Assembly: GCF_024223415.1 (NCBI RefSeq) | Contig: NZ_CP100501.1 | Source of the DNA: Escherichia coli | GTDB taxonomy: Bacteria; Pseudomonadota; Gammaproteobacteria; Enterobacterales; Enterobacteriaceae | Length of the DNA: 64,000 nucleotides | Reading direction: 5' to 3' (one strand) | In this document: piece after piece, positions 54,336-55,666 of the stretch | Layout of the letters: each line of letters begins with the position of its first letter | How positions within the stretch are numbered: position 1 is the stretch's first letter | The notes under the pieces: generated by a model | Database searches by the model: none | What the model was told of the DNA's origin: nothing | What the model saw: only the letters and a program-made list of their open reading frames with translations | Position numbers and translations under genes: made by a program

Positions 54336-55666
54336 TGTGCTTTTTCCTTGTCGGCGGGATGCTGTTTTTCGGTGGTTTCGGTGGTTTCGGTGGTTTCGGT
54401 GGTTTCGGTGGTTTCGGTGGTTTCGGTGGTTTCGGTGGTTTCGGTGGTTTCACCAGTGTCAGTGTCTTCGTCGTTATCATGGCGGCGGGGTATCACGTCA
54501 TCCGTGAGTGACCAGCGGGTCCTGATCTGACGTTTACGATCGCGATCTGGCTGAGGTTCGTCCCATATCAGGCCCAGCCCCAGCATGTCCCGTCGAAGCC
54601 CTTCAATGGCCTCTTCCACACAGGGTTCCGGGCAGGGGAGGCCGAGACGGCTGGCTTCATTTTCTGCCCGGGCAACGGCCACCACGCCGGCCCCTTCGAT
54701 GAAGCCTTTTGTGGTGTTTGCCCGGTGAAGGGCATAGAAGAGCGTCCGGTCAACGCCCTTGAGCCACAGCCAGTTCGGAGGCGTCAGGCGCAAATCATGT
54801 GCGTAAAGCCAGACCAGACCGCTGCGAACGTAACGGTGCTGCCTGAGCCACTTTTGTGCGCCTTCTGTTTTGATGACCCGGATAAAGGCGTTTCTGGCCA
54901 GTGAATACACCGGCGTGCTGAAACGCCCCTGGTCCCGTTTACTTTTGAGCCTGCAGGAGAGATTGAGGTTGTTCATCAGGGCTACCGCTGCTTTCCGGTC
55001 ACCGAGGAAGAACTGCAGGCCAAAGATGGCAAAGAGCGCTTTTTCATGTGGGGCCATGTCTTTCCAGCTGGTCAGTGGTTGCCCCAGTTGCGCCATGAAG
55101 CACTGGCGTGTGGACGCAACATCGAGCTGCATGTTGCGGATAAGGTTGTTCTGCTCCACAAAGGCTTCGGGGGTTAGTGCGACACGGCGCTCGGGACGTT
55201 TTTGTCCGTGGAAGAGTCTGTTGTTGTCTCCGTCAGCCAGAACGGGGGCGATCGCCGGTGACAGAGCTGAAAAAATATGGGGCAGTGTGTGGATATTCAG
55301 TGGCCTGCGGGTAAAACGGGGCTGGGCCGGATGGTGAAACCACATCCACAGAAAGCCGAATGTCATGGGAAGCAGAATCAGCCAGAGGATCCCCACTGTC
55401 CGGGACATAACATCCAGCCACTGGCTGAAAGTGATGGTTGCCGCGTTGTTAGCAGTGATGGCCAGCAGGTTGTAACGGGGGACGGCAAAGTTGTGAAAGG
55501 GCCCCCAGTCAATCATGCCCCACAGTGTGTGCAGGATCAGGCAGGAGGCGAAGACGATTTCAGGTAAAAAGCGCCAGATGATAATCGCAAAGAGCAGGCA
55601 TATGGCACCGACGATATACCATATAGCCATTGGATCTTCGGCGGCAGACGTCTGTTGGTAAGACAC
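54332..55666 (-). CDS. trbA: IncI1-type transfer protein TrbA (membrane protein with C-terminal (TTE)n repeat)
   Basis: 444-aa ORF, N-terminal transmembrane segments, C-terminal TGETTETTETTETTETTETTETTETTETTEK. Confidence 0.75.
   Translation of the reverse strand: MSYQQTSAAEDPMAIWYIVGAICLLFAIIIWRFLPEIVFASCLILHTLWGMIDWGPFHNFAVPRYNLLAITANNAATITFSQWLDVMSRTVGILWLILLPMTFGFLWMWFHHPAQPRFTRRPLNIHTLPHIFSALSPAIAPVLADGDNNRLFHGQKRPERRVALTPEAFVEQNNLIRNMQLDVASTRQCFMAQLGQPLTSWKDMAPHEKALFAIFGLQFFLGDRKAAVALMNNLNLSCRLKSKRDQGRFSTPVYSLARNAFIRVIKTEGAQKWLRQHRYVRSGLVWLYAHDLRLTPPNWLWLKGVDRTLFYALHRANTTKGFIEGAGVVAVARAENEASRLGLPCPEPCVEEAIEGLRRDMLGLGLIWDEPQPDRDRKRQIRTRWSLTDDVIPRRHDNDEDTDTGETTETTETTETTETTETTETTETTETTEKQHPADKEKAQ
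54366..54437 (-). repeat. In-frame 9-bp tandem repeat (eight perfect copies of TTTCGGTGG on the plus strand) inside trbA
   Basis: Counted directly in the sequence; encodes (TTE)n. Confidence 0.9.

What the first reader, a model, noticed from the sequence alone, without database searches (positions are those of the whole stretch)
54366..54437. Variable-number-type 9-bp tandem repeat encoding (TTE)n inside trbA
Eight perfect tandem copies of TTTCGGTGG plus a partial ninth encode TETTETTETTE... near the TrbA C-terminus. Perfect short tandem repeats are prone to slipped-strand expansion and contraction, which would change the length of this tract in frame.
Basis: seen in the sequence. Interest (0 to 1): 0.4.

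Follow-up and report, generated by a model that had tools for sequence, protein, structure and literature searches.

The report
Hypervariable 9-bp repeat inside trbA
A perfect 9-base repeat near the end of the plasmid conjugation gene trbA changes its copy number (1 to 16) between otherwise identical antibiotic-resistance plasmids, which lengthens or shortens a floppy acidic tail of the protein. It is a real hypermutable repeat of a well-known kind, and its main use is probably as a fine-scale plasmid marker.

Summary
The repeat is real but was under-counted. TTTCGGTGG occurs as 9 perfect units plus TTTC at 54367-54451, not 8 plus a partial unit at 54366-54437. On the minus strand it encodes E(TTE)9, residues 406-433 of the 444-aa TrbA, a DotM/IcmP homologue in the conjugative coupling complex.

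In PLSDB and in complete E. coli genomes the locus length varies only in steps of 9 bp (one of 171 listed spans is off by 1 bp), which gives 1 to 16 copies. Plasmids with 0 mismatches over about 42 kb of flanking DNA differ only at this array: 6, 9 and 10 copies in one Danish slaughterhouse clone, and 7 versus 12 copies in a human/poultry pair. Every TTTCGGTGG-unit array I read base by base (17 of the 20; the other 3 carry the variant unit) is DNA-perfect. A sublineage of STEC plasmids has independently expanded a synonymous unit, TTTCAGTGG.

The plasmid is IncK2/Z (B/O/K/Z cluster), not IncI1 proper, and R64 TrbA lacks the array. The array lies in a predicted disordered cytoplasmic tail. It cannot shift the reading frame, and it is not predicted to alter trbB translation.

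The most likely reading is replication slippage producing a tolerated length polymorphism. I found no published description. This is a new member of a known kind, of modest interest.

The parts
54367..54451 (-). Perfect 9-bp tandem array: (TTTCGGTGG)9 + TTTC on the + strand, GAA(ACCACCGAA)9 on the coding strand. It encodes E(TTE)9, TrbA residues 406-433.
   Evidence: The copy number is polymorphic (1-16) in related plasmids.
54332..55666 (-). trbA, 444 aa, a DotM/IcmP-family subunit of the type IVB (MPF_I) conjugative coupling complex.
   Evidence: Pfam DotM_C at residues 185-358, 162.5 bits against a cut-off of 27. Profile match to Legionella DotM 6sz9_B, E=2.9e-19 over positions 3-359. The AF2 model matches DotM crystal structures, and all of the top 13 hits are DotM (TM-score 0.85 on the target for 5x1u_A). 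PGAP annotates the identical gene as TrbA.
54335..54541 (-). Coding region for the predicted disordered C-terminal tail of TrbA (residues 376-444). A basic proximal part (DRKRQIRTR...RRH) is followed by an acidic distal part, DNDEDTDTGE(TTE)9KQHPADKEKAQ.
   Evidence: AF2 gives pLDDT below 50 and no secondary structure for residues 376-444. The tail has a net charge of -10, and each unit adds -1. Homologues stop being alignable after 'WSLTDDV'.
53217..54335 (-). trbB (DsbC-like thiol:disulfide isomerase, 372 aa). Its ATG overlaps the trbA stop codon (ATGA at 54332-54335). The array ends 31 nt upstream of this start.
   Evidence: PGAP annotates it as 'DsbC family protein'. The Pfam Thioredoxin_2 match is below the cut-off.
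50963..53236 (-). trbC (757 aa), the coupling-ATPase partner that completes the trbABC operon.
   Evidence: NCBIfam TrbC_conju, 1008.7 bits against a cut-off of 800. Pfam TraG-D_C.

Best explanation
This is a hypermutable, strictly in-frame coding VNTR. A 9-bp unit (TTTCGGTGG, or ACC-ACC-GAA on the coding strand) has been amplified from a one- or two-copy proto-repeat in the 3' end of trbA in I-complex plasmids of the B/O/K/Z cluster. Whole units are gained and lost, most likely by slipped-strand mispairing during plasmid replication (inferred). Each event adds or removes a Thr-Thr-Glu tripeptide, and one negative charge, in the disordered cytoplasmic C-terminal tail of TrbA. TrbA is the DotM-like subunit of the conjugative coupling complex. 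The unit is a multiple of 3 and lies after the folded domain, so the essential gene is never inactivated. The length polymorphism is therefore tolerated, and most probably neutral or only weakly modulatory. It accumulates much faster than point substitutions, so nearly every plasmid sublineage carries its own allele.
For: Shown: the array is perfect and in frame.

Shown: locus spans in 470 PLSDB records, and in 392 records from 380 of 5,426 complete E. coli genomes, differ from the query in multiples of 9 bp (one exception among the 171 listed spans). This gives 1-13 copies in the systematic samples and up to 16 among close relatives.

Shown: copy number differs within every flank-identical group. 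In the K2 group the counts are 4, 6, 9, 10, 13 and 16, with 0 SNPs among the six plasmids in 2.6 kb of flanks (0-1 SNP over 6 kb). Other pairs are 1 vs 3 (0 SNPs), 5 vs 9 (0 SNPs), 6 vs 7 (1 SNP) and 8 vs 10 (1 SNP).

Shown: three plasmids from one ST1286 clone in one Danish slaughterhouse have 0 mismatches over 42.4 kb, and their only difference is this array, at 6, 9 and 10 copies (context from PMC11047599).

Shown: the human-isolate plasmid pHBI01 and the slaughterhouse plasmid pSA17022 have 0 mismatches over 42,365 flanking bases and 7 vs 12 copies. Their total lengths differ by exactly 45 bp.

Shown: all 17 TTTCGGTGG-unit arrays that I read base by base are DNA-perfect, with no synonymous variation. 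This points to DNA-level turnover rather than selection on amino-acid composition.

Shown: a diverged STEC-plasmid sublineage has expanded a synonymous unit, TTTCAGTGG (2, 7 and 8 units), which is a second, independent expansion.

Shown: the array sits in a tail with pLDDT below 50, after the DotM-like fold. Other TrbA homologues, including R64, have short and dissimilar tails there.

From the literature: trbA is essential for conjugation in a B/O/K/Z plasmid (PMC10286972), so variants that destroyed its function would not persist on conjugative plasmids.
Against: No read-level data were available, so heterogeneity within a culture and the actual slippage rate are untested. I cannot formally exclude that some copy numbers are mis-estimated in hybrid or short-read assemblies.

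The rate is not extreme. One 12-copy allele is shared by 18 PLSDB records, which include the ST429 plasmids PS15001, PS16002 and SA17022-24.

Neutrality is inferred, not shown. No isogenic length variants have been compared, and an upper bound near 16 copies could reflect either selection or sampling.

Slippage cannot be told apart here from other unit-wise mechanisms, such as unequal recombination or repair during conjugative DNA synthesis.
Confidence: 0.8

Rival explanations
1. The array is an adaptive rheostat. Changing the length and charge of the TrbA tail heritably and reversibly tunes coupling-complex activity (transfer rate, substrate choice or cost to the host), and selection maintains the array's mutability. 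It would be a contingency locus for conjugation.
For: The repeat has expanded at least twice, with different synonymous units. It sits in a protein essential for transfer (PMC10286972). The homologous DotM domain binds acidic Glu-rich peptides (PMC5802825). The F-like coupling protein TraD carries an analogous variable QQP repeat in a functionally important C-terminal extension (PMC3245843).
Against: Nothing here links copy number to phenotype. Alleles from 1 to 16 copies all occur on plasmids typed as conjugative. Of the DotM arginines that bind Glu-rich peptides, only R314 (TrbA R307) is conserved (PMC5802825). Recurrent expansion is also what pure mutational bias would produce.
Confidence: 0.14
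2. The array acts at the RNA or DNA level. Its length would change translation of the overlapping downstream gene trbB, or the stability of the trbABC mRNA.
For: The array ends 31 nt upstream of the trbB start codon, which overlaps the trbA stop codon (ATGA), so the two genes are probably translationally coupled.
Against: In silico, the array RNA is largely unpaired (about 0.8). The predicted accessibility of the trbB ribosome-binding site is 0.75 for every copy number from 0 to 20. The distance from the array to the trbB start does not change with copy number.
Confidence: 0.03
3. The copy-number differences are assembly or sequencing artefacts, and the true array is invariant.
For: Short tandem arrays can be collapsed by short-read assemblers. 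Several 'partial' TrbA proteins in NCBI end exactly at the start of the array, which suggests that contigs break there.
Against: The differences are always whole perfect units. The same alleles recur in independent records (18 records with 12 copies). The variation is seen in hundreds of complete records deposited by many different groups. The Danish set was hybrid Illumina + ONT R10.4.1 with manual correction (PMC11047599). Arrays of 13-148 bp are easily spanned by long reads.
Confidence: 0.02
4. It is a classical ON/OFF phase-variation switch of trbA.
For: It is a simple-sequence repeat inside a coding region.
Against: The unit is 9 bp, so every change keeps the reading frame. 170 of the 171 listed spans differ by multiples of 9. 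The one exception (332 bp, H44, with trbA not annotated there) was not followed up. trbA is annotated as intact at each copy number checked from 1 to 16.
Confidence: 0.01

Closest known systems
Variable Gln-Gln-Pro (QQP) repeat in the C-terminal extension of F-like TraD coupling proteins
   Same: Both are tripeptide repeats of plasmid-specific length in an unstructured cytoplasmic C-terminal tail of a component of the conjugative type IV coupling apparatus. TraD of F carries just five residues (QPQQP) and TraD of R1 carries 23 (PMC3245843).
   Different: The protein is different and not homologous (the VirD4-type ATPase TraD versus the DotM-like TrbA). So are the plasmid family (MPF_F versus MPF_I) and the residues (neutral Q/P versus acidic T/E). 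The TraD tail has a known partner, TraM, whereas no partner is known for the TrbA tail. The fine-scale instability shown here between near-identical plasmids is not described there.
Coding-region VNTRs used for bacterial typing, for example the S. aureus spa X-region or the clfB SD repeats, and MLVA loci (from my own knowledge, not checked here)
   Same: Both are in-frame short tandem repeats in a tolerant low-complexity protein segment. Copy number changes by whole units faster than SNPs accumulate, which makes them useful high-resolution markers.
   Different: Those examples are chromosomal and mostly in surface proteins. This one is on a conjugative plasmid, in a cytoplasmic tail of an essential transfer protein, so it marks the plasmid lineage rather than the host.
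Legionella DotM/IcmP (T4BSS coupling complex; PDB 5X1U, 6EXB, 6SZ9)
   Same: The host protein shares the fold and the N-terminal membrane region. In both systems the gene lies upstream of the gene for the coupling ATPase (DotL or TrbC).
   Different: DotM has no TTE array. The match to the NCBIfam DotM equivalog model is far below its cut-off. Of the Glu-rich-peptide-binding arginines, only R314 is conserved in TrbA.
IncI1 TrbA of R64 (Furuya and Komano 1996, as cited in PMC10286972)
   Same: It is the orthologue in the same trbABC operon, about 76% identical (P0003).
   Different: R64 TrbA is 402 aa and ends ...LPRTPATDNEF with no repeat. In R64, trbA and trbB are separated by 18 nt rather than overlapping.

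Membership tests
Hypermutable coding VNTR / simple-sequence repeat | Head-to-tail copies of a short unit with high identity | tested here: met
   9.4 copies, 100% identity, TRF score 170.
Hypermutable coding VNTR / simple-sequence repeat | Copy number differs among close relatives, by whole units | tested here: met
   1-16 copies, with spans changing in steps of 9 bp. Plasmids with 0 mismatches over about 42 kb differ only at this array.
Hypermutable coding VNTR / simple-sequence repeat | The locus mutates faster than the surrounding sequence | tested here: met
   Every flank-identical pair or group examined has different copy numbers. No other indel or SNP was found in the three 42-kb comparisons among the ST1286 plasmids or in the pHBI01/pSA17022 comparison.
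Hypermutable coding VNTR / simple-sequence repeat | Measured slippage rate or length heterogeneity within a clonal culture | not testable with these tools
   No sequencing reads or cultures were available.
Phase-variable contingency locus (ON/OFF) | A change in repeat length shifts the reading frame or the promoter spacing and so switches expression | tested here: not met
   The unit is 9 bp, so all changes are in frame. The predicted accessibility of the trbB RBS is unchanged for n=0-20.
Phase-variable contingency locus (ON/OFF) | The product is exposed to a changing external selective agent, for example at the cell surface | tested here: inconclusive
   By homology with DotM, whose C-terminal domain is cytoplasmic (PMC5802825), the tail should be cytoplasmic. 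The topology of TrbA itself was not determined.
DotM/IcmP-TrbA family (T4BSS coupling-complex subunit) | DotM C-terminal cytoplasmic domain | tested here: met
   Pfam PF23127, 162.5 bits against a cut-off of 27. Foldseek TM-score 0.85 (on the target) to 5x1u_A, with all of the top 13 hits being DotM.
DotM/IcmP-TrbA family (T4BSS coupling-complex subunit) | Equivalog-level match to Legionella DotM (NCBIfam NF033890) | tested here: not met
   70.7 bits against a cut-off of 230. TrbA is a homologue of Legionella DotM, not an equivalog.
DotM/IcmP-TrbA family (T4BSS coupling-complex subunit) | Encoded next to the coupling ATPase and required for transfer | tested here: met
   The gene order is trbA-trbB-trbC. 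The requirement for conjugation comes from the literature on pMS7163B and R64 (PMC10286972) and was not tested for this plasmid.
   The nearest records, with trbAB 99-100% identical, are typed IncK2/Z. R64 trbA is too divergent for megablast, and its TrbA lacks the array. The window's own replicon was not typed.

The most novel reading that the evidence does not exclude
The (TTE)n tail is a tunable acidic pseudo-substrate. Like the Glu-rich 'E-block' signals that Legionella DotM binds, it would dock in cis or in trans on a basic surface of the TrbA/TrbC coupling complex and compete with, or gate, the recruitment of transferred proteins (relaxase NikB, primase Sog). Slippage-driven changes in length would then give plasmid populations a heritable, reversible dial for transfer efficiency or substrate selectivity. 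That would be a new kind of contingency locus, acting on horizontal transfer itself.
Probability: 0.07. Interest if true: 0.65.

Novelty: new member of a known kind. Interest (0 to 1): 0.35.

Why it matters
B/O/K/Z-type I-complex plasmids carry blaCMY-2, blaCTX-M and STEC/Shigella-associated traits. The locus was found in 380 of 5,426 complete E. coli genomes.

(1) A locus that changes while 42 kb of backbone stays identical is a ready-made, PCR-sizeable marker. It can separate plasmid sublineages that SNPs cannot. One example is the human pHBI01 against the slaughterhouse pSA17022, from isolates reported as 4-7 chromosomal SNPs apart.

(2) The locus has practical side effects. Several 'partial' TrbA proteins end exactly at the start of the array, which suggests that short-read contigs break there. 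NCBI's product name for the same gene flips from 'IncI1-type conjugal transfer protein TrbA' to 'conjugal transfer protein TrbA' or 'hypothetical protein' once the array exceeds 9 units.

(3) Biologically, it is a natural length series in the tail of a DotM-family protein whose role in conjugation is poorly understood. It offers a cheap route to asking what that tail does.

Tried and rejected
(a) A recombination or mosaic boundary at the repeat. Hits H57-H60 matched only from inside the array towards trbA. Reading L007 showed a normal 5-copy array with a few SNPs in the 150-nt trbB-side flank, which simply broke the megablast seed. Rejected.

(b) An effect on trbB translation. ViennaRNA partition-function folding with 0-20 units left the RBS accessibility at 0.75. 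Not supported.

(c) ON/OFF phase variation. This is excluded by the 9-bp unit.

(d) A Chi-like site. By eye, the GGTGG in the unit matches only 5 of 8 positions of GCTGGTGG. Rejected without further testing.

(e) The tail as a cis mimic of DotM's Glu-rich ligands. Only DotM R314 (TrbA R307) is conserved, while the positions of R196/R197 and R217 are V and D in TrbA. I keep this only as a low-probability novel case.

(f) Literature. Searches for trbA with IncI1 and 'tandem repeat', trbA with IncK2, trbA with '9-bp' and 'repeat', and the literal strings TTETTETTE, ETTETTETT, GAAACCACCGAAACCACC and TTTCGGTGGTTTCGGTGG found no description of this array. The library lacks most subscription-journal papers, so an earlier mention cannot be excluded.

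(g) Accession AP005147 (R64) is not in the collections, so I used NC_005014 instead.

(h) The exact-sequence look-up of the window's TrbA found nothing. My query range included the stop codon, so I draw no conclusion from that result.

Full report
**1. What is there.** TRF finds one outstanding array in the 64-kb window: 54367-54451, period 9, 9.4 copies, 100% matches, score 170. No other array exceeds 3.8 copies or a score of 70. The sequence reads (TTTCGGTGG)9 + TTTC. The unit, its perfection and the frame were right. On the minus strand the array is GAA(ACCACCGAA)9 and encodes E(TTE)9. These are residues 406-433 of a 444-aa ORF at 54332-55666(-), and the array ends 11 residues before the C-terminus.

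**2. The host gene.** The ORF carries the Pfam DotM_C domain at residues 185-358 (162.5 bits, cut-off 27). A profile of 18 homologues matches Legionella DotM/IcmP (6sz9_B, E=2.9e-19, positions 3-359). The AF2 model superposes on DotM crystal structures, and all of the top 13 Foldseek hits are DotM (TM-score 0.85 on 5x1u_A). It is not an equivalog of Legionella DotM: the NCBIfam model scores 70.7 bits against a cut-off of 230. PGAP calls the identical gene TrbA. Downstream lie trbB (53217-54335, DsbC-like), whose ATG overlaps the trbA stop codon as ATGA, and trbC (50963-53236; NCBIfam TrbC, 1008.7 bits). So 'trbA' is correct. The backbone, however, is not IncI1 proper. Records whose trbAB is 99-100% identical are typed IncK2/Z, mostly blaCMY-2 poultry-associated plasmids. 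This is the B/O/K/Z cluster 2 of the I-complex (PMC10286972). The IncI1 reference R64 has a 402-aa TrbA that ends ...PATDNEF, with no copy of the unit and a non-overlapping trbA-trbB junction.

**3. Is it variable?** I searched PLSDB by megablast with the array plus 150-nt flanks and found 470 records. In a systematic ('spread') sample of 56 full-length rows, the matched span was 313, 322... 421 bp. That is the query length plus or minus multiples of 9, with one exception of 332 bp. It corresponds to 1-13 copies, with this distribution: 1:7, 2:5, 3:4, 4:6, 5:3, 6:8, 7:7, 8:5, 9:3, 10:3, 11:1, 12:3, 13:1. An independent collection, complete RefSeq E. coli genomes, gave 392 records in 380 of 5,426 genomes. 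Of the 398 places, 397 are on plasmids, and the same ladder of spans appears. Among the 60 records closest over the whole trbB-trbA segment, copies ran from 4 to 16.

**4. Does it vary faster than the backbone?** I fetched 21 loci that carry the array, plus R64, and counted units directly. After clustering 2.6 kb of flanks, every flank-identical group is polymorphic:
- K2 group, 0 SNPs among six plasmids: 4, 6, 9, 10, 13 and 16 copies. The window itself has 9 copies and differs from this group by 2 SNPs.
- L008/L011, 0 SNPs: 1 vs 3.
- L007/L015, 0 SNPs: 5 vs 9.
- L012/L013, 1 SNP: 6 vs 7.
- L014/L016, 1 SNP: 8 vs 10.

With 20-kb flanks on each side, pSB18001, pSB18003 and pSB18002 have 0 mismatches over 42.4 kb, and the only gap is at the array: 6, 9 and 10 copies. 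All three come from E. coli ST1286 in one Danish slaughterhouse in 2018. The six ST1286 isolates from that slaughterhouse (2017-2018) differ by 13-90 chromosomal SNPs (PMC11047599). pHBI01, from a human clinical isolate reported as 4-7 SNPs from the slaughterhouse isolates SA17021/22, and pSA17022 have 0 mismatches over 42,365 flanking bases and 7 vs 12 copies. Their total lengths, 119,333 and 119,378 bp, differ by exactly 5 units. These assemblies were hybrid Illumina + ONT R10.4.1 with manual correction. The rate is not extreme, though: one 12-copy allele is shared by 18 records, which include ST429 plasmids isolated in 2015-2017.

**5. How it evolves.** All 17 TTTCGGTGG-unit arrays that I read base by base are DNA-perfect, with no synonymous codon variation. 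This is the signature of ongoing unit duplication and deletion at the DNA level, not of selection for a T/E-rich composition. A diverged sublineage on STEC plasmids (CP027334, pO104_H21 CP009107 and CP075666) carries the synonymous unit TTTCAGTGG (ACT instead of ACC). There it is expanded to 2, 8 and 7 units, with one further point-mutated unit (TEI) in pO104_H21. So expansion happened at least twice. One- and two-copy alleles exist on different flank haplotypes, which makes a short proto-repeat the likely ancestor. Slipped-strand mispairing is the standard mechanism for such behaviour and is what I infer. Nothing here distinguishes it from other unit-wise processes.

**6. What it does to the protein.** AF2 predicts a helical membrane region and the DotM-like domain up to about residue 365. 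For residues 376-444 it gives pLDDT below 50 and no secondary structure. Homologues align up to 'WSLTDDV' and then diverge. Most end in a short acidic stretch with a terminal Phe (...DHEF...DEESPF), one has a long Pro/Ala tail, and only the B/O/K/Z type has ...DNDEDTDTGE(TTE)nKQHPADKEKAQ. Each unit adds three residues and one negative charge. The distal segment goes from -6 at n=1 to -21 at n=16. By homology with DotM the tail is cytoplasmic, so antigenic or phage-driven diversification is unlikely.

The unit length rules out frameshifting. Predicted trbB RBS accessibility is 0.75 for any n from 0 to 20, and the array RNA itself is unstructured. trbA is essential for conjugation in a B/O/K/Z plasmid (PMC10286972), and alleles with 1-16 units all sit on plasmids typed as conjugative. 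My best reading is therefore a tolerated, near-neutral or weakly modulatory length polymorphism in a disordered tail. That step is inference.

**7. Rivals and the most novel reading.** An adaptive 'rheostat' cannot be excluded. The closest analogue is the variable QQP repeat in the unstructured C-terminal extension of F-like TraD coupling proteins, a region that matters for specificity (PMC3245843). Legionella DotM binds acidic Glu-rich peptides through arginine patches (PMC5802825), so an acidic tail could act as a pseudo-substrate. Against this, only DotM R314 (TrbA R307, invariant in my alignment) is conserved, whereas R196/197 and R217 are not. No phenotype data exist. I rate the rheostat reading at about 0.14 and the specific pseudo-substrate version at about 0.07. 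Assembly artefact (0.02), RNA-level regulation of trbB (0.03) and ON/OFF phase variation (0.01) are poorly supported.

**8. Novelty.** Targeted full-text searches, including the literal peptide and DNA strings, found no description of this array. The paper that produced the Danish plasmids does not mention trbA. The library lacks most subscription journals, so an earlier mention is possible. In kind this is an ordinary coding VNTR, so I file it as a new member of a known kind. Its value is practical: it is a plasmid-lineage marker that resolves plasmids identical over 42 kb, a likely cause of contig breaks, and a source of inconsistent product names. It also provides a natural length series for probing the unknown role of the TrbA tail. 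Interest: 0.35.

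Noticed in passing
PLSDB records listed (e.g. 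NZ_CP141234.1, NZ_CP141235.1, NZ_CP141249.1): The product name that NCBI gives this gene tracks the repeat count. With 4-9 units it is 'IncI1-type conjugal transfer protein TrbA'. With 10, 11, 13 or 16 units it is 'conjugal transfer protein TrbA'. Seventeen of the eighteen 12-unit records are 'hypothetical protein'. The repeat apparently pushes the protein past a naming rule's length or coverage threshold.
   Followed up: partly
Proteins P0002, P0056, P0075: Several 'partial' TrbA proteins in NCBI end exactly at ...DTDTG(E), the residue before the array. This suggests that short-read contigs terminate at the repeat.
   Followed up: partly
Proteins P0068 and P0073: Some TrbA variants carry an internal 21-aa tandem duplication (AQNNLIRNMQLDVAATRQCFM x2, i.e. 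63 bp) inside the DotM-like domain, in addition to a short TTE array.
   Followed up: no
window 6132-6218 (+), 44391-44477 (+), 50042-50158 (-); repeats 5795-6094 = 44054-44353 (100%); inverted arms 6205-7087 / 49183-50065 and 44464-45345 / 49184-50065: There are three matches to the ALIL pseudoknot (RF01497), each inside long direct or inverted repeats. They probably mark three related insertion-sequence copies (ALIL is known from IS3-family elements; related plasmids annotate IS3-family transposases here). One lies immediately beside trbC. This probably explains why only 3 PLSDB records cover at least 80% of the 20-kb stretch around trbA.
   Followed up: no
window 55817-55904 (-) and 58936-59092 (+): Rfam finds an AgrB-type antisense RNA just upstream of trbA. 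Related plasmids annotate a DinQ-like type I toxin gene, dqlB, at that position. About 3 kb further on there is a sok antitoxin RNA (hok/sok-type, pnd-like). So there are two type I toxin-antitoxin loci next to the trb operon.
   Followed up: no
window 27229-27528 vs 34160-34459 (97%) and 28871-29072 vs 35215-35416 (93%): Two pairs of diverged direct repeats lie about 6.3-6.9 kb apart, which suggests a duplicated segment or paralogous genes in the middle of the window. I did not examine them.
   Followed up: no
window 723-1953 vs 46264-47494: A 1,231-nt inverted repeat, 96% complementary, with arms 44 kb apart. It is probably another pair of mobile-element copies. I did not examine it.
   Followed up: no
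window 37564-37601: A 12-bp tandem repeat, GGTTTTAAAGAA x3.2, 96% matches. It has the second-highest copy count in the window, after the 3.8-copy array at 21461-21502, and scores 69. I did not check it for polymorphism.
   Followed up: no
PLSDB CP061251.1 (hit H44): This is the only listed span that is not a multiple of 9 (332 bp instead of 331), and trbA is not annotated in that record. It may be a 1-bp indel or frameshift, or a sequencing error.
   Followed up: no
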